Shown: positions 1 through 36,070 of the stretch, in pieces | How the letters are laid out: each line of letters starts with the position of its first letter | How positions within the stretch are numbered: the stretch's first letter is position 1 | IMG/VR virus record: IMGVR_UViG_2531839486_000019 | Span: 1-38,567 of that record | Reading direction: 5' to 3' (one strand) | Length of the DNA stretch: 38,567 nucleotides | From: a virus | Lineage: Duplodnaviria; Heunggongvirae; Uroviricota; Caudoviricetes | Translations under genes and position numbers: made by a program | The notes under the pieces: model-generated | The model's input: the letters and a program-made list of their open reading frames with translations, nothing else | Databases searched by the model: none | What the model was told of the DNA's origin: nothing

Positions 1-516
1 ATGAAATTTAAAAAATGTCTTCTGCCTGTGGCAATGTTAGCGTCATTCACTCTGGCAGGATGCCAGTCAAATGCTGACGATCATGCTGCCGATGTTTATC
101 AAACCGATCAACTGAATACCAAACAAGAAACTAAAACCGTTAATATTATTTCCATTCTTCCCGCAAAAGTTGCCGTAGACAACTCCCAAAATAAACGGAA
201 CGCACAAGCCTTCGGCGCGCTTATTGGCGCAGTCGCTGGCGGTGTTATCGGCCACAACGTCGGGTCTGGCAGCAATTCCGGAACGACGGCAGGGGCAGTT
301 GGCGGCGGAGCTGTAGGCGCGGCAGCGGGTTCTATGGTGAATGATAAAACCTTAGTGGAAGGTGTTTCTTTAACCTATAAGGAAGGCACCAAAGTGTATA
401 CCTCTACCCAGGTGGGTAAAGAGTGCCAGTTTACGACAGGTTTAGCCGTTGTTATTACCACGACGTATAACGAAACGCGTATTCAGCCAAATACCAAATG
501 TCCTGAAAAGAGCTAA
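1..516 (+). CDS. Gly/Ala-rich (glycine-zipper) lipoprotein, SlyB/YcfJ-like; probably host or prophage-flank gene
   Basis: ATG at 1; signal peptide with lipobox L-A-G-C; GAVAGGVIGH and GGGAVGAAAG glycine-zipper stretches; RBS not visible at window edge. Confidence 0.6.
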   Translation: MKFKKCLLPVAMLASFTLAGCQSNADDHAADVYQTDQLNTKQETKTVNIISILPAKVAVDNSQNKRNAQAFGALIGAVAGGVIGHNVGSGSNSGTTAGAVGGGAVGAAAGSMVNDKTLVEGVSLTYKEGTKVYTSTQVGKECQFTTGLAVVITTTYNETRIQPNTKCPEKS

Positions 517-531
517 TAATCAGGAGGAGTC

Positions 532-1071
532 ATGAAGAAAGTTTTTCTTTGCGCCATCTTAGCCTCCTTAAGCTATCCGGCTATCGCCTCATCATTGCAG
601 GATCAACTCTCTGCTGTCGCAGAAGCGGAACAGCAAGGTAAAAATGAAGAGCAAAGGCAGCATGACGAATGGGTCGCGGAGCGCAACAGGGAAATCCAGC
701 AAGAGAAGCAACGTCGCGCAAATGCCCAGGCCGCCGCTAACAAAAGAGCGGCAACGGCAGCGGCAAATAAGAAAGCTCGTCAGGATAAACTGGACGCCGA
801 AGCCTCTGCGGACAAAAAACGCGATCAAAGTTATGAAGATGAGCTACGCAGCTTAGAGATTCAGAAACAAAAACTGGCGCTGGCAAAAGAAGAAGCCCGC
901 GTTAAGCGAGAAAACGAATTTATCGATCAGGAACTGAAGCACAAAGCTGCGCAAACCGATGTGGTGCAATCTGAAGCTGACGCCAACAGAAATATGACTG
1001 AAGGCGGTCGCGATCTGATGAAAAGCGTGGGCAAAGCAGAAGAGAACAAATCGGACAGCTGGTTTAATTAA
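532..1071 (+). CDS. secreted Ala/Lys/Glu/Gln-rich coiled-coil protein, function unknown
   Basis: RBS caGGAGGagtc 5 nt before ATG; N-terminal signal peptide; low-complexity charged helical composition. Confidence 0.55.
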   Translation: MKKVFLCAILASLSYPAIASSLQDQLSAVAEAEQQGKNEEQRQHDEWVAERNREIQQEKQRRANAQAAANKRAATAAANKKARQDKLDAEASADKKRDQSYEDELRSLEIQKQKLALAKEEARVKRENEFIDQELKHKAAQTDVVQSEADANRNMTEGGRDLMKSVGKAEENKSDSWFN

Positions 1072-3060: not shown

Positions 3061-3148
3061 CGTTTAATGTGCATAAAGAACCCCCTTAGTTGGTGAGTTC
3101 ATCATACACAATAAACCATATCTGGATTAATAATCACCAGATTTATCC

Positions 3149-3177
3149 TAGTCAAATTACCTTTTGGGTGATATAGT
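3149..3177 (+). promoter_or_regulatory. candidate promoter of the acyltransferase gene with operator-like dyad in the spacer
   Basis: -35-like TAGTCA (3149-3154), 17-bp spacer containing TTACC-TTTTG-GGTGA (3157-3171), -10 TATAGT (3172-3177). Confidence 0.4.
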
Positions 3178-4247: not shown

Positions 4248-6536
4248 CTACAGTACAGGGGAAAGTGATACTCTTAACCCGGATGTAGACGATAGGGTTA
4301 AAGAACCAACAGCTTTGATATTGAGAATATCTCCAGTTGTAACAAATTTAACCATGTCTACCGTCTGCCCTGCGGAAGCATTCTCCTCAGAAGCTCCATT
4401 AATGCCAAAAGTTAACGATCCCGAAGATACCCCTCTGGCAAACACAGAAATTCTTACCAGCGCTGGTGCATTGAACTGAATAGTACCTCCGGATAACGCA
4501 GCGTTTGCCGTCCCATTTAACGAAGAGAATGTCACTTCTGCTCCAGATGCGAATGATGTTCCGGTTGTTACGGTTGTCTGACCAAACCCGACCATTCGGT
4601 TTTTAAAACGGTAAGAATCAAGGCTGGTCAAGCTGATATTAGAAAGTCGCGTATTTGCTGATATGTCAAGATATCCTCCAGATTCATTTATCACTCTTGT
4701 GTTAGCCGCATCAGCCAAAATAGTAGATGGCCTCAAGTTTAGCCTTCCTCCTGAAAGAACATGAATGATCCCCTCTGATGTCGAGTCTTGTGTGACATGA
4801 AAAATAGCGCTGAGATTAACATCGATATTTGAATTTGATCCTACGCGTAATATACAAGCAGCTGAACTTTCGCAAGATACATCTCCATAAAACCAACTAT
4901 TGGTTGTCTGAAAACAAGAAGGAGTTGGGGAGGAAGCGGTGTGTTTTTTTATATTTTCAAAAGTCACGCGTTCCAGCTTGCCATTGCCAAAATACTCAAC
5001 CTGCATACCGCGAGTATAACCATTAAATGACAGACGAAACGATACTGAGTTACCACAGTCAAGAGTCGTCGAAAAATGGTCAGCCCAAAGCCCAAAAGAC
5101 AAGACAGGATCGGAGGTTTCAGCAGCCAAGCCTACATGCCTTCCAGCTAATTTACCAAGGAACGCAACGTTAAATCTAATCCCCCCATTAAACCCCCGGC
5201 TGTCGATCTCAATGTCAAAGTCTGCCATATGAGGGGCATAAATCGCCCAGTCAGATTTCATACTTGATTGCAACGTAAAACCTTTGGCTACAATCCCCCT
5301 TGCGAAGGGGGTTGCAGCATTCTGCCGCTTAATGATGACCCCAGCATCCACATCAAAGGGTACAAGGTCACCAACACCAGGATAGGCAAGAGGAGGAATG
5401 CCACTGGTAGTGTTATCAACTTTCACAAATCTGGGTGTAAAAGCTGCATCACTACCTATTGTCATTCCTTCAATGTGATTGTAGTAATCAAGTACGATCG
5501 GTTTTTTATGATAAATAACAGATGTAATGTAAACAATTGAATAACCAAACCTAGATCGGGTAACTGCCTGTGCTATAAAAGCGTCATTTTGCTCTGCAAA
5601 TGATTCATCAATAATTTTTACACCGAATTGCTGAAAATTGTATGTATCCTTCTTCATAAGCCATGCAAATTTTGTTTCGTCGATAACTACTGACCCAGCA
5701 TCCGTATAGTCCTGAAGAGGTGCACCTTCGCTAATAATGTAATCCGCGCCACCTCCGTCGTTTGGCGTATAGTAGCCCAGCGTTCTGCACACCTTCCCGA
5801 CGGCTGGTGCAGTTGAGATCATATCAGCTACGTTCTGAAAGACGTTATCCACTCCACCGATCAGCAAAGACCCATGTGTTGCAGCAAGCTGTATAAGAAC
5901 ATCAGAGGCCGAACCAGAAGGAGGCAGTACGACAAATGGATTACCCGAACTGTCGAAGGCAATCATTTTGTTTGCCCTGGTAGCCGCATCAGGTAGCTGA
6001 GATATAGGATCTGGGACTCGTAACGTGCGACTAAAATTGTTGTTCGCCAGCGTATCAACATAATTCTTGGTGGCCGCATCCTGCGGGTCGCGCGGATCTC
6101 GAAGATTACGGATGTAGTTGTTAAGGGCGTCGTACCAGTTCGCAATGCTGGACGGTTTACGCAGCGCCAGGCGAAACATACTGTAGGCCTGCTGGATCAG
6201 CATCGTCAGCTTATCGAAAGCGTCTTCATGTACCTCAGCGAAGAACTTGCCCTGATTACGCAAATCAGTTTCCTGCGTAACCGGGAGGTCTCGTGATATA
6301 GAAATCTGATAACCGTTAGCCAACGCCTTCGACAGAATTACATTACCGCCGTTGTACCCTCCCGCACCAGTTACTGTGTAATCAGTATCAAGAGCCAGCA
6401 CAGCGATATTTTCATCAAGGTCAACCACCTGAACAACCAGGTCGGATTTTTTGAAAATACGGAAGGTATACGGAAATGATGTCGTAGCGCCGTTACCGGT
6501 GTATTCGTTGTGGTCAACTTCGGTTGAGACCGTCAT
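4248..6536 (-). CDS. tailspike / tail fiber with T7 gp17-like N-terminal anchor domain and large C-terminal receptor-binding (probable depolymerase) domain
   Basis: ATG 6534-6536 with RBS GGAGA 8 nt upstream; N-terminal ~110 aa resemble podovirus tail-fiber N-domain; C-terminal two-thirds AT-rich. Confidence 0.85.
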   Translation of the reverse strand: MTVSTEVDHNEYTGNGATTSFPYTFRIFKKSDLVVQVVDLDENIAVLALDTDYTVTGAGGYNGGNVILSKALANGYQISISRDLPVTQETDLRNQGKFFAEVHEDAFDKLTMLIQQAYSMFRLALRKPSSIANWYDALNNYIRNLRDPRDPQDAATKNYVDTLANNNFSRTLRVPDPISQLPDAATRANKMIAFDSSGNPFVVLPPSGSASDVLIQLAATHGSLLIGGVDNVFQNVADMISTAPAVGKVCRTLGYYTPNDGGGADYIISEGAPLQDYTDAGSVVIDETKFAWLMKKDTYNFQQFGVKIIDESFAEQNDAFIAQAVTRSRFGYSIVYITSVIYHKKPIVLDYYNHIEGMTIGSDAAFTPRFVKVDNTTSGIPPLAYPGVGDLVPFDVDAGVIIKRQNAATPFARGIVAKGFTLQSSMKSDWAIYAPHMADFDIEIDSRGFNGGIRFNVAFLGKLAGRHVGLAAETSDPVLSFGLWADHFSTTLDCGNSVSFRLSFNGYTRGMQVEYFGNGKLERVTFENIKKHTASSPTPSCFQTTNSWFYGDVSCESSAACILRVGSNSNIDVNLSAIFHVTQDSTSEGIIHVLSGGRLNLRPSTILADAANTRVINESGGYLDISANTRLSNISLTSLDSYRFKNRMVGFGQTTVTTGTSFASGAEVTFSSLNGTANAALSGGTIQFNAPALVRISVFARGVSSGSLTFGINGASEENASAGQTVDMVKFVTTGDILNIKAVGSLTLSSTSGLRVSLSPVL

Positions 6537-6614
6537 GTTAAATCTCCAGATAGTCGCAGCACCCGTTGCGCCGCATATCTGGTTATTCTATTACCTGAAA
6601 AACCACATATGGAT

Positions 6615-6656
6615 AGACAACCCATAAATAAGAACAGATATTACCTTTCAGGTGAT
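6615..6656 (+). promoter_or_regulatory. candidate promoter plus operator-like dyad upstream of the 85-aa plus-strand gene
   Basis: -35-like TAGACA (6615-6620), 17-bp spacer, -10-like GATATT (6638-6643) overlapping dyad TTACC-TTTCA-GGTGA (6642-6656). Confidence 0.4.
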
Positions 6657-6731
6657 TCGCAAAACGTGCTGGATAGCAAACAAATTATTTGCTACTGTAT
6701 AAATATACAGTTATTGCATGGAGAAGATAAG

Positions 6732-6989
6732 ATGCAGCAGTATCACTATCCACTGGAAGACGGATTTACCGAAAGGATTCACACGCCGGGAGGCGTCAGA
6801 TCACTAGTGGAGGGATCGCACTTGATGAAATTACTCCGGGATCTCGATAAGGATGGATTTAATGTCGATGGCCCACTTGCCGAACTGACTGCACTGATTA
6901 ACTACGTCACCAGCTCACAGATGTCTATGCAGGATCTGCAAACACATCTCGACTATTGTGCCGAACAATTACGAAAACAAACTACATAA
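6732..6989 (+). CDS. hypothetical 85-aa protein (cargo gene on opposite strand to late genes)
   Basis: internal ATG at 6732 preceded by GGAGAAG; the longer track ORF from 6609 lacks an RBS; TAA at 6987-6989. Confidence 0.5.
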   Translation: MQQYHYPLEDGFTERIHTPGGVRSLVEGSHLMKLLRDLDKDGFNVDGPLAELTALINYVTSSQMSMQDLQTHLDYCAEQLRKQTT

Positions 6990-7012: not shown

Positions 7013-7020
7013 GTGACATG

Positions 7021-7317
7021 TCACGTTCCTTTTCTGAATGCTAGCCATTCGAAAAATGATGACATTCCACCGCAGACAATAGCAAAGATGATCCCACCAA
7101 AGAAGAGAAGGCCAGCCTGCCACCACTCCCACCGCCATACATCCACAGCGCCAACCATACCAACAATCGCTCCAACAAATGGAATATAGCTCACGATGAA
7201 AGCAATGGGGGCTGCAATTATCCAGTGCAATCCCCACCATGATTCAAGCCCAGCCATAATTGCTGCCAACTGAAAAAGACCAACGACGATATAAACAATG
7301 AATCCTATAGCTTGCAT
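7021..7317 (-). CDS. small membrane protein (3 predicted TM helices), function unknown
   Basis: ATG at 7315-7317 with RBS AGGTGA; the N-terminal extension of the track ORF is unsupported; hydrophobic, Trp-rich. Confidence 0.5.
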   Translation of the reverse strand: MQAIGFIVYIVVGLFQLAAIMAGLESWWGLHWIIAAPIAFIVSYIPFVGAIVGMVGAVDVWRWEWWQAGLLFFGGIIFAIVCGGMSSFFEWLAFRKGT

Positions 7318-19599: not shown

Positions 19600-20592
19600 T
19601 TACACCACGCGGGCTTCTGTTTCCAGAAGCGCATCAGTTTCACGGATTGGTACACCACGGAATGAAGTCCACCACTCGCCTTCTGTCTCTTTTACGCTGA
19701 TCGCCAGAGATGTTTTCTCCAGAGATTGCAGATCAAGAGCCTGGCCTACAGTGCGGTTCATGTAGAACACCGGGCGACCCATGCCACGATTTGGAATGCG
19801 ATGCAGTGCTTTAACCATCAACTTCGCAATATTTGCGGCAGAGGAAGGTTCTGAAAGATTGCTGACATCGATGTTTGCAATGCGAACAACATAACGCCAG
19901 TCACGCAGAGCAAGTCCGTTGTCCCATTTGTAATGGGTACGGTAGCCTTCGTACTTGCCGCCATTCGCATCTTCCAGTGTCACCTGGCCTTTATCTTCCA
20001 TCTGGATGCCAGCCTTCTGCCCTTTCGGGAAGATGCCATGCACGGTGTTTTCGCCCCACACCACTAACCAGATTGAGGTGTTATCTGTACCCGTGCCACC
20101 AGCATCAATGATGTTCTGAGCATTACCCGCAGACAGGCTGGAATAGCGGGAGGACAGTCCCATAAACTGCTGAGGGTTAACGCTGGAATCACCATAAAAC
20201 AGCGTCTGCGCCATCTGCTGATTCATCGCTTCAATAAATGCGCGGTCTTCAGACAGGCGGAATTCGGCGGTATTGCCGTTCAGATCAGCCAGTGACTTAT
20301 CGACTTCAGCATAGGTTTCCAGCATGCCAACGGAATCTGTTACCTGCACTGTGGTTGATTTGCTTGGCTGTACGCCATAGTTCAGCAAACGCCAGGTAGC
20401 TGAAGGTAAACCAGAACGAATGGTGGTTCGGTGTCCGGTAGGAAGGTTCCCTTCGACAAAAGGCATATCCTGAAGGATCGGGTTAGTTTGACCGAGAAGC
20501 TCGATAATCTTATCGACTTTCCCGTTTGGATCGACGCGCTTACCCCAGTCAGCCAGCGTTAGCGCAGTTAAGCCTTTAACAGCCATTGTCAT
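19600..20592 (-). CDS. major capsid protein (T7 gp10-like)
   Basis: 330 aa after the scaffold gene; RBS GAGAGG favours the start at Met3 (20584-20586). Confidence 0.8.
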   Translation of the reverse strand: MTMAVKGLTALTLADWGKRVDPNGKVDKIIELLGQTNPILQDMPFVEGNLPTGHRTTIRSGLPSATWRLLNYGVQPSKSTTVQVTDSVGMLETYAEVDKSLADLNGNTAEFRLSEDRAFIEAMNQQMAQTLFYGDSSVNPQQFMGLSSRYSSLSAGNAQNIIDAGGTGTDNTSIWLVVWGENTVHGIFPKGQKAGIQMEDKGQVTLEDANGGKYEGYRTHYKWDNGLALRDWRYVVRIANIDVSNLSEPSSAANIAKLMVKALHRIPNRGMGRPVFYMNRTVGQALDLQSLEKTSLAISVKETEGEWWTSFRGVPIRETDALLETEARVV

Positions 20593-23492: not shown

Positions 23493-23560
23493 ATCAATGA
23501 CTCCGTACGCAATTAAATTATTACCAATTTAACCACATATGATTTATTTATCGTAGATAG

Positions 23561-23597
23561 TTGACATTTAACGCACAAATTATTACCTTTCAGGTAA
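23561..23597 (+). promoter_or_regulatory. candidate plus-strand promoter with operator-like dyad driving the tRNA operon
   Basis: perfect -35 TTGACA (23561-23566); dyad TTACC-TTTCA-GGTAA (23583-23597) over the -10 region; exact -10 hexamer ambiguous. Confidence 0.4.
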
Positions 23598-23919: not shown

Positions 23920-23996
23920 GTGGCATTAGCTCAGTTGGACAGAGCAACCGCCTTCTAAGCGGTTGGTCGCAGGTTCGAATCCTGCATGCCACGCCA
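23920..23996 (+). tRNA. tRNA-Arg (anticodon UCU), phage-encoded
   Basis: 77-nt cloverleaf: acceptor GTGGCAT/ATGCCAC, D-stem GCTC/GAGC, anticodon stem ACCGC/GCGGT with loop CTTCTAA, T-arm GCAGG-TTCGAAT-CCTGC, discriminator G, encoded CCA. Confidence 0.85.
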
Positions 23997-24039
23997 GAAT
24001 CACGCCTAAGGACCGTGATGCCAGAAGTTCCAGGTGCTT

Positions 24040-24081
24040 GGCGGTGATGGTTTCCCTTGAAGGACTATCACCGCCCTTTTT
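24040..24081 (+). terminator. rho-independent terminator downstream of the tRNA
   Basis: stem ggcggtgat (24040-24048) / atcaccgcc (24067-24075) followed by CTTTTT. Confidence 0.5.
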
Positions 24082-24159
24082 ACAGCAGGACGCCATTGCG
24101 ATGACTTCATGCTGTAAACCCGTACAGCCACGGAAGGCATAACTCATTGCTTCCAGTTC

Positions 24160-24183
24160 GCCCGGTTCGCCGGGCATTTTTTT
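24160..24183 (+). terminator. second terminator-like hairpin ending 12 nt before the 123-aa gene start (attenuator candidate)
   Basis: stem gcccgg / ccgggc with ttcg loop, then A + TTTTTTT (24177-24183); RBS AAGGTGAGA follows directly. Confidence 0.45.
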
Positions 24184-24194
24184 AAGGTGAGATT

Positions 24195-24566
24195 ATGAAC
24201 GACCAGCAAATCGAAAAAGAAATCGTTGAGAAAGGAAAAACGGCACCGCGCGTTACGCCAGACCATATCGAAGGCATTATTGCTCAGGAGGCATATTTCA
24301 CAGCAGAAGATGGTGCCTTTGGCAAAGCCATAAAAGCGAAACATACTGGCGGAGAGGTAAACTACCAGCCGCACGAATCACTTTCTCTGCTGACGTTCTG
24401 CGTCCTGGTACTGCGCAACGGCTTCACCGTCACCGGAGAGAGTGCCTGTGCAAGTCCGGAAAATTTTGATGCAGAAATTGGTCGGAAGATTGCCCGGCAG
24501 AATGCTGTAAACAAAATCTGGATGCTCGAAGGTTACTTGCTGAAGCAGAAGCTAAGCGAGCAATAA
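24195..24566 (+). CDS. hypothetical 123-aa protein (cargo gene co-oriented with the tRNA)
   Basis: ATG 24195 with RBS AAGGTGAG 5 nt upstream; TAA at 24564-24566; terminator downstream. Confidence 0.6.
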   Translation: MNDQQIEKEIVEKGKTAPRVTPDHIEGIIAQEAYFTAEDGAFGKAIKAKHTGGEVNYQPHESLSLLTFCVLVLRNGFTVTGESACASPENFDAEIGRKIARQNAVNKIWMLEGYLLKQKLSEQ

Positions 24567-24586
24567 CACCGTGACATGTCACAAAC

Positions 24587-26132: not shown

Positions 26133-26725
26133 TGATTACCATCCTGACGTTCTTTGAGTCGCTTCCTGGCTGCTGCTATGCGATCAGCAATTGTCACATT
26201 CACATTAACATCCAGACGTTCTTTGAACGCGTTGACATCAACATGCTTACCAATCAGCTCAAGGTTCTTCACCTTGTCCGGCCATTTGATTTTTTTGAGG
26301 ATTGTCTCTATCGAATCCTCGTTCATGTTCATGATGGTCGATGACAGATCAAAGCCGCTAAGCGTAGTGCGCCAGATTTTCGGCCACTCGCGGATTGGTT
26401 TAAGGCTCCCATCGTCGTTGAGGATGTCGATCACGTCCATCTGGTCGATCTCCACCAGGCGCATGAGAACGTAATCAGCACTGACGCGCATTCGTTTGTT
26501 GCGTTCCTCCATCAGCTCGGCAATCCGTTTCTGAATGCGTTCATCTCGCATCATGACACTGGCTTTAACTGCCGCTGTATTTGGGGAGAATCCTGCGTTA
26601 ATCGCTGCCTGAGTCTGGTTTTCAGGCGTTTTGATGTATGACTGGCAATAAGCCTCCTGCATTGCTGTTAGTGGCTTAAATTGCGTTGATTTGCGTTTAT
26701 AGGTTTTAGTTTCAGCAGGCATCAT
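26129..26725 (-). CDS. terminase small subunit
   Basis: start moved to ATG 26723-26725 (MMPAETK...); the upstream 26 track codons translate a tandem DNA repeat and are unlikely coding. Confidence 0.7.
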   Translation of the reverse strand: MMPAETKTYKRKSTQFKPLTAMQEAYCQSYIKTPENQTQAAINAGFSPNTAAVKASVMMRDERIQKRIAELMEERNKRMRVSADYVLMRLVEIDQMDVIDILNDDGSLKPIREWPKIWRTTLSGFDLSSTIMNMNEDSIETILKKIKWPDKVKNLELIGKHVDVNAFKERLDVNVNVTIADRIAAARKRLKERQDGNQ

Positions 26726-26732
26726 AACCACC

Positions 26733-26764
26733 GTGGTAATAGTTACCGTTGTGGTAATAGTACC
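26733..26764. repeat. tandem direct repeat GTGGTAATAG(T)TACC x2 immediately upstream of the terminase small gene
   Basis: copies at 26733-26747 and 26751-26764; each is itself a GGTAA...TTACC dyad. Confidence 0.6.
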
Positions 26765-26768
26765 ATGC

Positions 26769-26794
26769 AAAATAAAGCCGCCATAGTTGGCGGC
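26769..26794 (-). terminator. hairpin plus T-run (minus strand) just upstream of the terminase operon
   Basis: stem gccgcca / tggcggc with tagt loop; on the minus strand it is followed by TTTATTTT. Confidence 0.45.
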
Positions 26795-26843
26795 AGTATT
26801 CAAAACACATCAAATTCATCATGCATAATCTACTCGTGACATG

Positions 26844-27185
26844 TCACACTATTAATTTCGTTTCATGCCAGCCTTTAGTCACCCAGCATTGCGAGTCACC
26901 ATTACACGGGCATGAATTAACTGGAACTCTCTCGCCGCACTTACCGCAACGTTTTCTGCTGATCGATTTTATACGCCCGCGCACGCGTGCATCATCCTGG
27001 CGGATCAGTAACGCTATATACTCACCAAATTCGTAAGGCGCACGCCCGGGGCGACGCGTGGCACAGTTACGCTCCAGCATTTCAATTTCCTGAGCATCAA
27101 GCACAATCTCCAGCTTACGCACACCAGATGCAGCTTGTCTGGCTCTCTGAGCGGCTTTGCGCTCTGCTGCTGATTTAGCCATCAA
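26844..27185 (-). CDS. Cys-rich zinc-finger protein; candidate late-gene regulator (position of lambda Q)
   Basis: 113 aa; basic N-terminus and C-terminal cluster CGKCGERVPVNSCPCNGDSQC; last early gene before the terminases. Confidence 0.5.
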   Translation of the reverse strand: MMAKSAAERKAAQRARQAASGVRKLEIVLDAQEIEMLERNCATRRPGRAPYEFGEYIALLIRQDDARVRGRIKSISRKRCGKCGERVPVNSCPCNGDSQCWVTKGWHETKLIV

Positions 27186-30068: not shown

Positions 30069-30416
30069 TCAGAACTCTTCGATGTTCCAGCCGCCACCTG
30101 CTTTCTTTGGTTTAACCGTTACCCCGATGATTCGGAACGGATACTGATCTGCGGCTACTTTGGTTTTCACCCTGGCGTCGTCGGTCCAGAATCCCCCTTT
30201 CACTTCGTGCAGTTCCATCTCTCCGGTGGCGAGCATCACAGCGAAATCGGGCGTATAGAACGTGTTGTCAGCTAACCGCAGCTTGATACCCTCGAATCGA
30301 TACCAGGCGATTTCCCCTGCACGTTTACGCAGCTCAAGGTGCTGGCAATACGCAGATTCTGTTTTGTTCATCTGATCTGTTTTGAGTCGACCAAGAGCCT
30401 GTATCTGTTTTCTCAT
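30069..30416 (-). CDS. putative PD-(D/E)xK-type nuclease (small resolvase-like protein)
   Basis: YTPDF ... ELHEVKG motif spacing consistent with PD-(D/E)xK; ATG 30414-30416 with GAGGT SD lying inside dyad 30420-30434. Confidence 0.5.
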   Translation of the reverse strand: MRKQIQALGRLKTDQMNKTESAYCQHLELRKRAGEIAWYRFEGIKLRLADNTFYTPDFAVMLATGEMELHEVKGGFWTDDARVKTKVAADQYPFRIIGVTVKPKKAGGGWNIEEF

Positions 30417-30419
30417 GAT

Positions 30420-30496
30420 TTACCTCTGAGGTAATTAAAAACCACATAAGACACGAAATCAATAGATTTTAGAATATTTTATTACCTAACAGGTAA
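30420..30496 (+). promoter_or_regulatory. regulatory module between the P-like gene and nin genes: two operator-like dyads flanking AACCACATA
   Basis: TTACC-TCTGA-GGTAA (30420-30434); AACCACATA (30440-30448); TTACC-TAACA-GGTAA (30482-30496). Confidence 0.45.
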
Positions 30497-32347: not shown

Positions 32348-32426
32348 GGTAAGCCCTGTTATTAGTATTGGGATTACGGTTATTTTGTGCTGACACAAAA
32401 AAAAGATCAACCAAATTTGGTTTTTT

Positions 32427-32441
32427 ATTACCTTTGAGGTG
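32427..32441. promoter_or_regulatory. operator-like dyad between the Cro-like gene and the next early gene
   Basis: TTACC-TTTGA-GGTGA; preceded by perfect palindrome AACCAAATTTGGTT. Confidence 0.4.
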
Positions 32442-32497
32442 AGAATAGATATGAAAAGACCGCCGGATGACGGTCTACAGAGGGTTGTGGCTGGATA

Positions 32498-32728
32498 TCA
32501 TGAGTAGAAGAAGTATGCCAGTTCTGCTTTTGAGCGCAGCCATTGTCTTGTTTTACAGGCTTTAAAAAGCCCATTCATCAATACCTTACCTGGCATTTTG
32601 CGCTTACCTGTTAAGTGAGTCTGGATATAGTGACTCGTCGTTCCGGCTTCCTGTGCGAAGGCTTCACGCTCATCCGGAGTAAGTGCAAGCCAGTGCTTTT
32701 TGAAATCGAAATGTCCGTTATCGCTCAT
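32498..32728 (-). CDS. Cro-like HTH regulator (YdaS/Cro family)
   Basis: 76 aa, ATG 32726-32728; HTH-like segment DEREAFAQEAGTTSHYIQTHLTGKR; divergent from the CI-like gene. Confidence 0.6.
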   Translation of the reverse strand: MSDNGHFDFKKHWLALTPDEREAFAQEAGTTSHYIQTHLTGKRKMPGKVLMNGLFKACKTRQWLRSKAELAYFFYS

Positions 32729-32827: not shown

Positions 32828-32882
32828 TATTGCTTTAAATTGAATCATCTACTGATTCATATATGAGGCGATTTTCCAGAAA

Positions 32883-33467
32883 ATGAAAAGTATCCAGGAC
32901 GTCCGCAGGCAAAATCTCAACGACTTGATCGACCGTGAATTCAATGGTGTTCAGACGCGGATGGCAGAAAAACTTGGAACTCAGGCAAATCTGGTAAACC
33001 GCTGGGCTCTTGGCAAGAAGGTTATCGGCGACCAGGTTGCGCGAAAAATTGAAGCTGCCGCCAATAAACCCCGTAACTGGCTTGATATCGATCGCTCGCT
33101 TTCTCAGGAAGGTTTTCAGCCTGTCGGCCCAAGCGACATTGGTCAGCTGGCGGCTCACAACCTGGAACGCTGGATGAGCGAAAGCCGCGACCTTTCAACA
33201 CAGGGAAAACTTCACCGCGCATCCGGCGTCGCCCAGGTGACAATCAGCCGCCTGTTAAACAATGAGGTCAGCGTTTCCATTTCCACCCTGGAGAATGTTG
33301 CATCTGCATTCGGGCGTCACGGATATGAACTACTGATTCACCCGCACGACCCTGCAACTATCAACTATGACCGCTCGCGCTACGCATTATTACCTGAAAC
33401 CGAGAAAGCAAAGATCGAAAGTTACATTGAATTTGTCATCAACCAGAACGAAAAAAACAAACAATAA
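32883..33467 (+). CDS. CI-like repressor candidate with HTH domain(s) and no recognisable LexA/S24 cleavage domain
   Basis: XRE-type HTH (GVQTRMAEKLGTQANLVNRWALGKK) and a second HTH-like stretch; no Ala-Gly/Ser-Lys peptidase motifs seen; divergent from Cro-like gene. Confidence 0.55.
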   Translation: MKSIQDVRRQNLNDLIDREFNGVQTRMAEKLGTQANLVNRWALGKKVIGDQVARKIEAAANKPRNWLDIDRSLSQEGFQPVGPSDIGQLAAHNLERWMSESRDLSTQGKLHRASGVAQVTISRLLNNEVSVSISTLENVASAFGRHGYELLIHPHDPATINYDRSRYALLPETEKAKIESYIEFVINQNEKNKQ

Positions 33468-33525: not shown

Positions 33526-33602
33526 TTACCTTACAGGTAATTTTTTTAACTCATATCTATTGACATCAAACCAAATACGCATAATTATTACCTCAACGGT
33601 AA
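33526..33602 (+). promoter_or_regulatory. pL-like early-left promoter with two operator-like dyads
   Basis: dyad TTACC-TTACA-GGTAA (33526-33540); -35 TTGACA (33560-33565); 17-bp spacer; -10 AATTAT (33583-33588) overlapped by dyad TTACC-TCAAC-GGTAA (33588-33602). Confidence 0.5.
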
Positions 33603-35821: not shown

Positions 35822-36070
35822 ATGAAAGGTGCATTAGGTAAGAAGGAACTCCTGGCGGTGGTGCCACTGTCATGGAGCACTATCGACCGTATGGAGCGCG
35901 CAGGGGAATTTCCTAAACGCTGGTATATCACCGATAAACGCTGCGCATGGAACCGTGACGAAGTTGAGCGTTGGCTTGATGAACGTCAAGCAGCAAGCCC
36001 GGCAGAGTTCCAGGGTAAAAAACCTCCTGTTCAGCAACGTGTATATCGTCCCGTGAGCAACGCTGCATGA
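35822..36070 (+). CDS. AlpA/excisionase-like winged-helix DNA-binding protein
   Basis: LLAVVPLSWSTIDRMERAGEFPKRWYITDKRCAWNRDEVERWLDE matches the AlpA/Xis-type HTH pattern. Confidence 0.6.
   Translation: MKGALGKKELLAVVPLSWSTIDRMERAGEFPKRWYITDKRCAWNRDEVERWLDERQAASPAEFQGKKPPVQQRVYRPVSNAA

What the first reader, a model, noticed from the sequence alone, without database searches (positions are those of the whole stretch)
23513..23597. Three paralogous promoter modules share AACCACATA plus a downstream dyad
Module A (6592-6656), module B (23513-23597) and module C (30420-30496) all read, on the plus strand: a TTACC half-site or full dyad, then AACCACATA (6602-6610, 23531-23539, 30440-30448), then a 31-43 bp stretch holding a -35-like hexamer (TAGACA in A, TTGACA in B), then a full dyad. 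A and B drive plus-strand cargo genes. C sits inside the minus-strand early operon with no plus-strand gene after it. This looks like a portable regulatory cassette spread by recombination.
Basis: seen in the sequence. Interest (0 to 1): 0.6.

Follow-up and report, generated by a model that had tools for sequence, protein, structure and literature searches.

The report
Repressor-controlled promoter modules in a prophage
The three look-alike stretches are real: they are standard promoter and operator units through which one known repressor shuts off most operons of an epsilon15/phiV10-type prophage. The shared 9-mer is part of a conserved 14-bp element whose binding partner is still unknown.

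Summary
AACCACATA occurs three times (6601, 23531, 30440), each exactly 5 bp from a TTACC/GGTAA half-site and 31-43 bp before a dyad.

The window is an epsilon15/phiV10-like (Uetakevirus) prophage. The dyad TTACC-N5-GGTAA is the known operator of the SPC32H-type repressor Rep. The window encodes Rep, its antirepressor Ant and a LexA box.

Surveys of relatives that did not depend on the motif gave these results:
- **Module A** is the tailspike promoter on the minus strand (TCCATA-17-TAGAAT). A -10 hexamer is present in 94 of 94 distinct relatives.
- **Module B** holds two back-to-back promoters. The plus-strand one (TTGACA-17-TACCTT) is well conserved and faces tRNA-Arg(UCU) and a gp66-like gene. 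A minus-strand one faces gp3/portal.
- **Module C** is a minus-strand paralog of the early promoter at 33526-33602. Two operators 62 bp apart bracket TTGAnn-17-(-10). This holds in 176 of 178 distinct modules.

The 9-mer is part of a 14-bp near-palindrome, ANYCNTATRYGSWT, found in the core of these promoters. Its function is not shown. My best guess is that it is an operator for a second regulator, the Cro-like protein.

These are fixed, syntenic family features, not a mobile cassette. Interest is moderate to low.

The parts
6641..6655 (.). Rep operator of module A (TTACCtttcaGGTGA, 1 mismatch). It lies between the ant promoter and the tailspike promoter.
   Evidence: The homologous site is annotated 'repressor' in epsilon15 at 19895-19911. 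The dyad starts 65 bp upstream of the -10 in 84 of 94 relatives.
6585..6613 (-). Tailspike promoter: -35 TCCATA (6613-6608), a 17-bp spacer TGTGGTTTTTCAGGTAA that contains the Rep half-site (6595-6591), and -10 TAGAAT (6590-6585). It serves the tailspike gene 4248-6536.
   Evidence: a -10 of form TA[GAC]AAT in 94 of 94 distinct upstream regions, T[CT]CATA 17 bp upstream in 82 of 94, and GGTAA before the -10 in 81 of 94. The start site has not been measured.
6601..6614 (-). The 14-bp element ATCCATATGTGGTT.
   Evidence: Exact match to the consensus ANYCNTATRYGSWT, which was derived from other phages.
6695..6710 (.). LexA box CTGTATAAATATACAG in front of ant (6732-6989, plus strand).
   Evidence: Read from the sequence. 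Ant matches the SPC32H Ant chain 5d50_E at E=1.3e-47.
23583..23597 (.). Rep operator of module B (TTACCtttcaGGTAA).
   Evidence: The homologous epsilon15 site is at 2931-2947.
23561..23589 (+). Plus-strand promoter of module B: -35 TTGACA (23561-23566), 17-bp spacer, -10 TACCTT (23584-23589) inside the operator.
   Evidence: TTGAC in 112 of 113 distinct relatives at fixed spacing, and the base giving T at -7 in 113 of 113. The -10 is weak (3 of 6), and the start site has not been measured.
23515..23543 (-). Probable minus-strand promoter for gp3-like/portal: -35 ATCATA (23543-23538), spacer TGTGGTTAAATTGGTAA containing the Rep half-site (23525-23521), and -10 TAATTT (23520-23515).
   Evidence: Same register as the tailspike promoter. 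The block TATRTGGTTAAATTGGTAATAATTTAA is at least 90% conserved in 113 relatives. This is inferred.
23531..23544 (-). The 14-bp element AATCATATGTGGTT.
   Evidence: Exact consensus match.
23920..23996 (+). tRNA-Arg (anticodon TCT), the first plus-strand gene after module B. It is followed by a gp66-like gene at 24195-24566.
   Evidence: ARAGORN; Rfam tRNA, 73 bits; PF13876.
30482..30496 (.). Distal Rep operator of module C.
   Evidence: The homologous epsilon15 site is at 35906-35922.
30420..30434 (.). Proximal Rep operator of module C. It overlaps the -10 and start region and the ribosome-binding site of gene 30069-30416.
30434..30462 (-). Minus-strand promoter of module C: -35 TTGATT (30462-30457), 17-bp spacer TCGTGTCTTATGTGGTT, and -10 TTTAAT (30439-30434).
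   Evidence: It aligns in register with the early promoter at 33526-33602, with 23 of 47 positions identical between the operators against 12 of 47 for the other strand. TTGA is at this position in 176 of 178 distinct 62-bp operator pairs.
30440..30453 (-). The 14-bp element TGTCTTATGTGGTT (1 deviation). It occupies spacer positions 4-17.
33526..33602 (+). Early promoter module, paralog of C: operator 33526-33540, -35 TTGACA 33560-33565, 14-bp element AACCAAATACGCAT 33569-33582, -10 AATTAT 33583-33588, operator 33588-33602.
3114..3171 (-). A fourth region of the same kind, upstream of the lysis genes: operator 3157-3171 and 14-bp element ATCCAGATATGGTT (3114-3127). The same operator lies in the spacer of the plus-strand oac promoter (TAGTCA 3149-3154 and TATAGT 3172-3177).
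   Evidence: Epsilon15 has the exact TATGTGGTT at the homologous place.
32409..32442 (.). A fifth region: perfect palindrome AACCAAATTTGGTT (32409-32422), 5 bp, then operator 32428-32442. It lies downstream of the cro-like gene.
   Evidence: The spacing is conserved in epsilon15, Tyrion and the Klebsiella phage.
32883..33467 (+). rep, the repressor that binds the dyads.
   Evidence: Matches the SPC32H Rep chain 5d50_A at E=4e-42. It is 42% identical to epsilon15 gp38.
32498..32728 (-). Cro-like small helix-turn-helix protein, the candidate binder of the 14-bp element.
   Evidence: PHROG 35. It is 76% identical to epsilon15 gp39. The model has pLDDT 81.6 and its best fold matches are YdaS/434-type DNA-binding domains, but all at E>1.

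Best explanation
The window is an epsilon15/phiV10-type prophage that runs on one repressor and many operons. Nearly every transcription unit starts with its own sigma-70-type promoter carrying operators (TTACC-N5-GGTAA) for the SPC32H-type tetrameric repressor Rep.

**The three modules**
- **Module C** and the early promoter at 33526-33602 are paralogs of one standard unit. Two operators sit 62 bp apart. A -35 TTGAnn lies 19 bp after the distal operator, followed by a 17-bp spacer and a -10 that abuts the proximal operator. C fires on the minus strand, after a terminator-like hairpin, into the RuvC-like gene and the genes behind it.
- **Module A** is the tailspike promoter on the minus strand (TCCATA-17-TAGAAT). 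It has a Rep half-site just before the -10 and a full operator 65 bp upstream. The same intergenic region holds the LexA-controlled ant gene on the other strand.
- **Module B** is a back-to-back promoter pair. The plus-strand promoter TTGACA-17-TACCTT lies under the full operator and faces tRNA-Arg and a gp66-like gene. The minus-strand promoter, built like A, restarts transcription into gp3/portal.

**The 9-mer.** AACCACATA is not a plus-strand upstream element. It is nine bases of a 14-bp near-palindrome (ANYCNTATRYGSWT, core C-N-TAT-R-Y-G) that lies inside the core of these promoters. In the C and early-promoter types it occupies spacer positions 4-17. In A and B it covers the -35 and the first part of the spacer.

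**Shown:** the elements exist, their register is fixed, and they are conserved.

**Inferred:**
- A Rep tetramer bridges the two sites of each module and blocks RNA polymerase.
- The 14-bp element is the operator of a second dimeric regulator, most likely the Cro-like protein (about 0.35 for that step).
For: **Identity of the system**
- Megablast to phiV10, PAS61, phiv142-3 and epsilon15.
- Rep matches 5d50_A at E=4e-42. Ant matches 5d50_E at E=1.3e-47.
- The epsilon15 record annotates 'repressor' sites at the three homologous places.
- Rep binds palindromic sites as a tetramer (PMC9638917).

**Standard unit**
- A motif-independent scan for two dyads 62 bp apart gave 178 distinct modules. Of these, 176 have TTGA at inter-operator positions 20-23, in one orientation only.
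- C on the minus strand matches the early promoter at 23 of 47 ungapped positions. Only 154 of 20000 shuffles do as well. C on the plus strand matches at 12 of 47.

**Module A.** In 94 distinct tailspike upstream regions found through a coding pattern:
- the -10 TA[GAC]AAT is present in 94 of 94
- T[CT]CATA lies 17 bp upstream in 82 of 94

**Module B**
- In 113 distinct gp3 upstream regions, TTGAC is present in 112 of 113 and the T at -7 in 113 of 113.
- tRNA-Arg lies downstream.

**The 14-bp element**
- Among 52 distinct spacers: C7 in 50 of 52, T11 in 50 of 52, G14 in 48 of 52 and T17 in 50 of 52.
- It is present in about 16 of 20 divergent representatives.
- The only exact matches in the window are in A and B, against 0.2 expected. 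With at most 1 deviation it also hits the lysis-gene region, C and the early promoter.

**Cro-like candidate**
- It is 76% identical between the E. coli and Salmonella phages.
- Its fold matches resemble YdaS/434-type DNA-binding domains, though all at E>1.
- From my own knowledge, phage 434 operators have the same 4+6+4 bp geometry.
Against: - No transcription start site and no protein-DNA contact was measured here. All promoters are inferred from consensus and conservation.
- Several -10 hexamers are weak: TACCTT in B (plus strand), and TTTAAT in C, which lacks the A at -11.
- The 14-bp element sits at -26..-13 in the C and early-promoter types but at -36..-23 in A and B. No single promoter-based role fits both positions.
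- Its two arms are rarely both good (6 of 52 spacers), which is unusual for a dimer site.
- It is absent from the Salmonella and Klebsiella early promoters and from the promoter of the cro-like gene itself.
- A repressor that sits on late promoters is not what Cro does in lambda.
- The fold matches of the Cro-like model are not significant (E>1).
- I could not read the two key papers (Kropinski 2007; Kim and Ryu 2013), so part of this may already be published.
Confidence: 0.62

Rival explanations
1. All three modules are plus-strand promoters. AACCACATA is an upstream element, followed by a -35 and an operator over the start site. They form a portable cassette that recombination has placed in front of different cargo genes.
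For: - B fits this model, and its downstream genes differ between phages.
- Plus-strand consensus matches exist in A (TAGACA-17-GATATT) and C (AAGACA-16-TAGAAT).
- C-type modules sit between different flanking genes.
Against: - The distance from the 9-mer to the plus-strand -35 is 4, 21 and -1 nt, so there is no common register.
- The TAGACA position in A is variable (2 of 91). The minus-strand promoter there is conserved in 94 of 94.
- The plus-strand TAGAAT in C is present in only 45 of 104 distinct C-type modules and is replaced by GCGCAT in the Salmonella and Klebsiella types.
- C aligns with the early promoter only on the minus strand.
- The gene after A is ant, which has its own LexA box.
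- The modules are syntenic in all relatives.
Confidence: 0.08
2. The 14-bp element is a weak auxiliary binding site for Rep itself. Its core (ACC-N6-GGT) resembles the operator core (ACC-N5-GGT). Each promoter would then be covered by three Rep contacts, comparable to OR1-OR3 in lambda.
For: - The cores are similar.
- The element always lies 5 bp from a Rep half-site.
- Its centre is 19.5 bp from the proximal operator and 42.5 bp from the distal one, so roughly on the same face of the helix.
- It occurs at the Rep-controlled lytic promoters, which is where an immunity repressor should act.
Against: - The spacing differs by one base pair, and the arms match the operator poorly (GTGGTT against ATTACC, 1 of 6).
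- In A and B the arm next to the half-site is in direct rather than inverted orientation.
- One tetramer with two DNA-binding pairs is reported to suffice for repression (PMC9638917).
- Rep is only 42% identical between phages that share the element.
Confidence: 0.18
3. The 14-bp element has no binding partner. It is inherited promoter sequence shared because the modules descend from one ancestral promoter. It is kept because it overlaps the -35 in A and B, or because its flexible TATA/CA/TG steps help the DNA bend between the operators.
For: - C and the early promoter are clear paralogs.
- A and B share one register.
- In the most divergent tailspike promoters the left arm, which is the -35, is kept while GGTT decays.
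- The two arms are seldom both intact.
Against: - C7, T11, G14 and T17 are 92-96% conserved across spacer families that differ at most other positions. Normal sigma-70 spacers are not sequence-constrained there.
- The element also keeps its place where it overlaps no -35 (C type, the lysis-gene region, the region after cro).
- Its centre is not midway between the two operators.
Confidence: 0.2
4. The element acts in RNA. UAUGUGGUU plus the operator hairpin would form a nut-like boxA/boxB signal in the leaders of minus-strand transcripts, for an antiterminator that reads through the many internal terminators.
For: - In C the 9-mer is followed after 5 nt by a 15-nt hairpin with a 5-bp stem and 5-nt loop.
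- The genome has many internal terminators.
- The gp49-like protein has an Arg/Ala-rich N-terminus.
Against: - A and B have no hairpin after the 9-mer.
- If the conserved promoters are right, the 9-mer lies upstream of the start site and is not transcribed.
- It bears no resemblance to the boxA consensus (from my own knowledge).
- In Tyrion module C and in the early promoter the element is inverted.
Confidence: 0.03

Closest known systems
Rep/Ant/LexA lytic switch of Salmonella phage SPC32H, and the repressor sites annotated in phage epsilon15
   Same: - The window has homologs of Rep (E=4e-42) and Ant (E=1.3e-47), and a LexA box before ant.
- The operator ATTACC-N5-GGTAAT is the same.
- The epsilon15 record marks repressor sites at the places homologous to A, B and C.
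- Rep binds palindromic sites as a tetramer (PMC9638917), which fits operators that come in pairs.
   Different: - As far as I could check, nothing describes the fixed 62-bp promoter unit, the strand of each promoter, or the 14-bp element.
- The primary papers were not available to me.
Lambda and 434 OR/OL regions (CI and Cro on shared operators)
   Same: - A repressor and a small Cro-like protein are encoded divergently.
- Operators overlap the -35 and -10.
- Binding between sites is cooperative.
- The 14-bp element has the 4+6+4 geometry of phage 434 operators (from my own knowledge).
   Different: - Here each promoter has two identical operators 62 bp (or about 50 bp) apart, not three adjacent ones.
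- Such units are spread over the whole genome, including the late genes.
- If the Cro-like protein binds the 14-bp element, it uses a different site from the repressor, unlike lambda and 434.
Phage P1 C1 repressor with operators dispersed over the genome
   Same: One repressor controls many separate operons through operators at many promoters (from my own knowledge).
   Different: - P1 operators are asymmetric 17-bp sites and are mostly single.
- Here they are palindromes, paired at fixed spacing, and bound by a tetramer.
Morons: self-contained promoter-gene-terminator insertions in phage late operons
   Same: - The plus-strand unit after B consists of a promoter, tRNA-Arg, a gp66-like gene and a terminator. 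It lies antiparallel inside the late operon.
- Its gene content varies between relatives.
   Different: - Its promoter is overlapped by the Rep operator, so it should be off in the lysogen. Classical morons are expressed from the prophage.
- The promoter/operator part is a fixed family feature. Only the genes behind it vary.

Membership tests
SPC32H/epsilon15-type Rep operator | 17-bp palindrome ATTACC-N5-GGTAAT | tested here: met
   13 sites with at most 1 mismatch against 0.56 expected. The same sequence is annotated as repressor sites in epsilon15.
SPC32H/epsilon15-type Rep operator | The cognate repressor is encoded in the same element, together with Ant and a LexA box | tested here: met
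   Rep matches 5d50_A at E=4e-42. Ant matches 5d50_E at E=1.3e-47. The LexA box CTGT-N8-ACAG is at 6695-6710.
SPC32H/epsilon15-type Rep operator | Rep physically binds these sites and represses transcription | not testable with these tools
   This needs a gel-shift, footprint or reporter assay.
Sigma-70 promoter | -35 and -10 hexamers with 16-18 bp spacing, conserved in relatives | tested here: met
   - A: 94 of 94 and 82 of 94.
- C and early-promoter type: 176 of 178.
- B, plus strand: 112 of 113 and 113 of 113.
- The -10 hexamers of B (plus strand) and C are weak.
Sigma-70 promoter | A mapped transcription start site | not testable with these tools
   No transcript data were available.
   - The positions are syntenic in all relatives.
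- But the genes behind B (plus strand), and on both sides of C, differ between relatives.
   The gaps are 4, 21 and -1 nt.
Lambda-type nut site (boxA + boxB) | A boxA-like sequence followed by a hairpin in the transcribed leader of each unit | tested here: not met
   A hairpin is present only in C. Under the conserved promoters the 9-mer lies upstream of the start site.
IHF, DnaA or CRP binding site | A match to WATCAANNNNTTR, TTATNCACA or TGTGA-N6-TCACA in one register across the modules | tested here: not met
   Checked by eye. The best matches (7 of 9 for IHF in A, 8 of 9 for DnaA in B) do not hold in the other modules. The consensus sequences are from my own knowledge.
Operator of the Cro-like protein (my proposal for the 14-bp element) | Dyad symmetry, position inside core promoters, and conservation matching a conserved DNA-binding protein | tested here: inconclusive
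   - The core C-N-TAT-R-Y-G is symmetric and 92-96% conserved.
- The Cro-like protein is 76% identical between phages.
- But the two arms are rarely both intact, and no binding was tested.

The most novel reading that the evidence does not exclude
Every Rep-controlled lytic promoter of this phage family carries, inside its core, a second conserved 14-bp dyad (ANYCNTATRYGSWT) that is the operator of a different regulator: the Cro-like protein, or possibly the gp49-like protein. The whole genome would then be wired through one standard promoter unit with two inputs, the immunity repressor at the flanks and a second factor in the middle. The same factor could act differently on early-type promoters (site at -26..-13) and late-type promoters (site at -36..-23).
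Probability: 0.3. Interest if true: 0.55.

Novelty: new member of a known kind. Interest (0 to 1): 0.35.

Why it matters
- It corrects the map of this prophage type. It shows which strand each repressor-controlled promoter serves. It shows that the late operon restarts after each antiparallel insert (tRNA/gp66-like, ant, oac). It also shows that a plus-strand tRNA-Arg lies where phiV10 annotates a minus-strand ORF.
- phiV10-type phages are being engineered as E. coli O157 reporter phages, so knowing the real promoters and operators is of practical use.
- The fixed unit of two operators 62 bp apart gives a concrete DNA substrate for the tetrameric SPC32H-type repressor.
- The conserved 14-bp element is a testable lead to a second layer of control.

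Tried and rejected
**Host-factor and other known sites for the 9-mer**
- IHF, DnaA box, CRP, sigma-54 and extended -10 readings were rejected, because no register holds across the modules.
- Integrase arm sites in epsilon15 are GTGACGGTAT and are unrelated.

**The 9-mer as half of a Rep dyad.** The would-be partner half matches the operator at 1 of 6 positions, so this was rejected.

**A 14-bp-like sequence in the rep leader** (32854-32867). It is not conserved in epsilon15, SPC32N, Tyrion or the Klebsiella phage, so it was dropped.

**Similarity between the Cro-like protein and the Rep N-terminal domain.** It is only 27% over 41 residues, which is not informative.

**Structure and sequence searches**
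- The gp49-like protein gave a model with pLDDT 46, which is unusable.
- It has no Pfam, NCBIfam or PDB sequence match.
- The Cro-like protein has no PDB sequence match.

**Collection scans**
- A genome-contig scan with the gp3-like protein found nothing.
- A viral-contig scan with the same protein returned only copies 99-100% identical. I therefore replaced it with coding-pattern scans.

**Literature**
- Kropinski 2007 and Kim and Ryu 2013 are not held.
- A full-text search for the motifs found nothing relevant.

**A single promoter role for the 14-bp element.** I could not find one that fits both promoter classes, nor a consistent -10 for the lysis-gene promoter (TATTGT or TATGAT).
Full report
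**1. What the window is**

Megablast places the window among epsilon15/phiV10-like podoviruses (Uetakevirus): PAS61, phiv142-3, phiV10 and, more distantly, epsilon15. Gene order is that of epsilon15 in reverse orientation.
- The long structural, replication and lysis operons are on the minus strand.
- The integrase is at the right end, and the lysis cassette is near the left end.
- The ORF at 32883-33467 (+) is a homolog of the SPC32H repressor Rep (5d50_A, E=4e-42).
- The ORF at 6732-6989 (+) is a homolog of its antirepressor Ant (5d50_E, E=1.3e-47). It is preceded by a LexA box at 6695-6710.
- From my own knowledge of the SPC32H papers, Rep is inactivated by Ant and ant is held off by LexA. 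I could not open those papers.
- A secondary source confirms that Rep binds palindromic sites as a tetramer, with each DNA-binding pair drawn from different dimers (PMC9638917).

**2. The observation**

- AACCACATA occurs three times, at 6601, 23531 and 30440.
- TTACC-N5-GGTAA with at most 1 mismatch occurs 13 times against 0.56 expected.
- Each 9-mer lies exactly 5 nt after a half-site: TTACC 6591-6595, TTACC 23521-23525, and the GGTAA arm of dyad 30420-30434.
- Each 9-mer lies 31, 43 or 33 nt before a dyad (6641, 23583, 30482).
- The fixed-offset triple was reached in 0 of 300 Markov simulations.
- Merely sharing a 9-mer among AT-rich operator neighbourhoods is not rare (61 of 1000 shuffles).

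**3. The dyad is a known operator**

The epsilon15 GenBank record annotates 'repressor' binding sites at 2931, 19895 and 35906. These are the positions homologous to B, A and C. It also marks sites in the immunity region and before terS. The same dyad recurs at the same syntenic places in SPC32N, Tyrion and Klebsiella ST512-KPC3phi13.3.

**4. The standard promoter unit, and module C**

I scanned IMG/VR for two perfect dyads exactly 62 bp apart. This pattern says nothing about what lies between them.
- Of 178 distinct modules, 176 carry TTGA at inter-operator positions 20-23, in one orientation only.
- That TTGA is followed by a 17-bp spacer and an AT-rich hexamer that abuts the proximal operator.
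- The modules fall into two families. One is the early promoter type (72 modules; window 33526-33602, plus strand, TTGACA-17-AATTAT). The other is the C type (104 modules).

The window's C on the minus strand aligns without gaps to the early promoter. Between the operators 23 of 47 positions are identical, including ATCTATTGA at the same place, and 154 of 20000 shuffles do as well. C on the plus strand gives 12 of 47.

C is therefore a minus-strand promoter (TTGATT 30462-30457, TTTAAT 30439-30434). It lies behind a small GC hairpin and a T7 run, and it leads into gene 30069-30416. This explains why no plus-strand gene follows it.

C-type modules are flanked by different genes in different phages, both upstream and downstream. 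The plus-strand consensus match in C (AAGACA-16-TAGAAT) is present in only 45 of 104 distinct C-type modules.

**5. Module A**

I collected 94 distinct regions upstream of tailspike genes through a degenerate pattern for the conserved N-terminal codons.
- All 94 have TA[GAC]AAT 30-75 nt before the ATG. T-12, A-11, A-9, A-8 and T-7 are at 100%.
- 82 of 94 have T[CT]CATA exactly 17 bp upstream.
- 81 of 94 have GGTAA directly before the -10.
- The full dyad starts 65 bp upstream of the -10 in 84 of 94.

This is a minus-strand promoter for the tailspike gene. That gene needs its own promoter because ant and a terminator lie between it and the preceding late genes.

The 9-mer is the last two bases of the -35 plus the first seven of the spacer. 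At that position relatives have TATGTGGTT (39), TATATGGTT (18), TATAAGGTT (7) and others. The exact identity of the three copies in this window is therefore lineage-specific.

**6. Module B**

I collected 113 distinct regions upstream of gp3-like genes in the same way.
- TTGAC on the plus strand is present in 112 of 113 at a fixed distance from the dyad.
- The fourth base of the dyad's central five on the sense strand is A in 113 of 113. This gives an invariant T at -7 of a plus-strand hexamer TACCYT placed 17 bp after TTGACA. No such constraint is seen in other operators.

Downstream lie a tRNA-Arg(TCT) at 23920-23996 and a gp66-like gene at 24195-24566, followed by a terminator. In relatives this slot holds tRNA-Arg plus other ORFs, or three unrelated ORFs.

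On the minus strand the block TATRTGGTTAAATTGGTAATAATTTAA is at least 90% conserved. It has the same register as the tailspike promoter: ATCATA, then 17 bp containing TGTGGTT-N5-GGTAA, then TAATTT. I read B as two back-to-back promoters, each overlapped by one Rep site. The pseudo-site lies 62 bp from the full dyad, the same distance as in the standard unit.

**7. What the 9-mer is**

The 52 distinct spacers of the 62-bp modules give the consensus A4 N Y6 C7 N T9 A10 T11 R12 Y13 G14 S15 W16 T17.
- C7, T11, G14 and T17 are at 92-96%.
- The core is symmetric.
- The pattern holds in about 16 of 20 representatives that differ from each other at more than 6 positions.

In C the 9-mer is positions 9-17 of this element. 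Some early promoters in relatives carry AACCACATA itself at positions 4-12, in the opposite orientation. Tyrion's module C has the element inverted relative to the window.

Scanning the window with this consensus gives exact matches only in A (ATCCATATGTGGTT) and B (AATCATATGTGGTT), against 0.2 expected. With one deviation it also finds the lysis-gene region (3114-3127), C and the early promoter, plus two probable chance hits. With two deviations it finds the perfect palindrome AACCAAATTTGGTT at 32409-32422, 5 bp from dyad 32428.

The shared motif is thus a 14-bp near-palindrome in the core of most Rep-controlled promoters that serve lytic genes. It is absent from:
- the promoters of cro, rep and oac
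- the LexA-controlled ant promoter
- the plus-strand promoter of B

**8. How it most likely works**

Shown: the elements exist, their spacing is fixed, and they are conserved.

Inferred:
- A Rep tetramer occupies both sites of each unit and blocks RNA polymerase, so one repressor silences each operon separately.
- When LexA is cleaved, Ant is made and removes Rep, and all units fire.

For the 14-bp element I commit, at about 0.35, to an operator for a second dimeric regulator, most likely the Cro-like protein at 32498-32728.
- That protein is 76% identical between the E. coli and Salmonella phages, whereas Rep is 42% identical.
- Its model (pLDDT 81.6) resembles YdaS/434-type DNA-binding domains, but not significantly.
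- The 4+6+4 geometry is that of phage 434 operators (from my own knowledge).

Points against this reading:
- The element sits 10 bp further upstream in A and B than in C.
- Its two arms are seldom both intact.
- It is missing from the Salmonella and Klebsiella early promoters.

The rivals are an auxiliary Rep site, inherited sequence with no partner, and an RNA signal.

**9. Verdict**

It is partly wrong on the strand of A and C, on calling ant cargo, and on mobility. The operators and the switch are already known for this family. The fixed promoter unit and the 14-bp element may be undescribed, but I could not check the primary papers.

Noticed in passing
7013-7024, 24571-24582, 26836-26847: The perfect 12-bp palindrome GTGACATGTCAC occurs three times against 0.14 expected. 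Each copy lies beside a terminator hairpin at the 3' end of a minus-strand transcription unit: after the gp18-like gene, after terL, and overlapping the stop codon of the gp49-like gene. Epsilon15 and SPC32N have it at the same three places. At 26836 it overlaps the -35 of a promoter-like site (GTGACA-18-CATGAT) that is followed about 20 nt later by a terminator, an arrangement reminiscent of lambda PR'-tR'.
   Followed up: partly
23920-23996 (+): A tRNA-Arg (anticodon TCT) lies where phiV10 annotates a minus-strand ORF (p04; window 23926-24177). That ORF is probably spurious. SPC32N and a Klebsiella relative also carry a tRNA-Arg in this slot.
   Followed up: yes
3149-3177 (+): The promoter-like site before the O-acetyltransferase gene oac (TAGTCA-17-TATAGT) has the Rep dyad 3157-3171 exactly in its spacer. 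A lysogenic-conversion gene would then be under the immunity repressor, which is unexpected for a gene that should be expressed in the lysogen.
   Followed up: no
32409-32507 (+): The palindrome AACCAAATTTGGTT, 5 bp, a dyad, and then the ATG of an 18-codon ORF lie on the plus strand. They point antisense through the cro-like gene toward rep. The geometry recalls lambda P_RE, but there is no -35. The spacing is conserved in epsilon15, Tyrion and the Klebsiella phage.
   Followed up: partly
6671-6710 (+): The likely ant promoter is TGGATA-17-TACTGT, with the LexA box over the -10 and start site. CTGGATAG is conserved upstream of the operator in most relatives.
   Followed up: partly
26719-26803 (-): Two tandem Rep dyads (26725 and 26743) lie between a terminator (26777-26794) and the probable true start of terS (ATG 26722 or 26719). 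They fall inside the longer TTG-started ORF that phiV10 annotates. Epsilon15 annotates the shorter gene, with the operator upstream of it.
   Followed up: partly
26844-27185 (-): The gp49-like 'transcriptional regulator' is the last gene before the late operon. It has an Arg/Ala-rich N-terminus, a possible ribbon-helix-helix strand (RKLEIVLD) and a C-terminal Cys cluster. It is 79% identical to epsilon15 gp49 and matches no known family. The structure model was too poor to use (pLDDT 46).
   Followed up: partly
1-1071 (+): Beyond the lysis cassette, at the left end of the window, lie a glycine-zipper/TraT-like ORF (1-516, possibly cut by the window edge) and a DUF5384 ORF (532-1071). They are probably cargo next to the attachment site.
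   Followed up: no
23511-23530: In module B the Rep half-site GGTAAT is flanked by inverted repeats (TTAAATT GGTAAT AATTTAA on the minus strand). The repeats are invariant in 113 relatives. This is an extra constraint not seen in module A.
   Followed up: no
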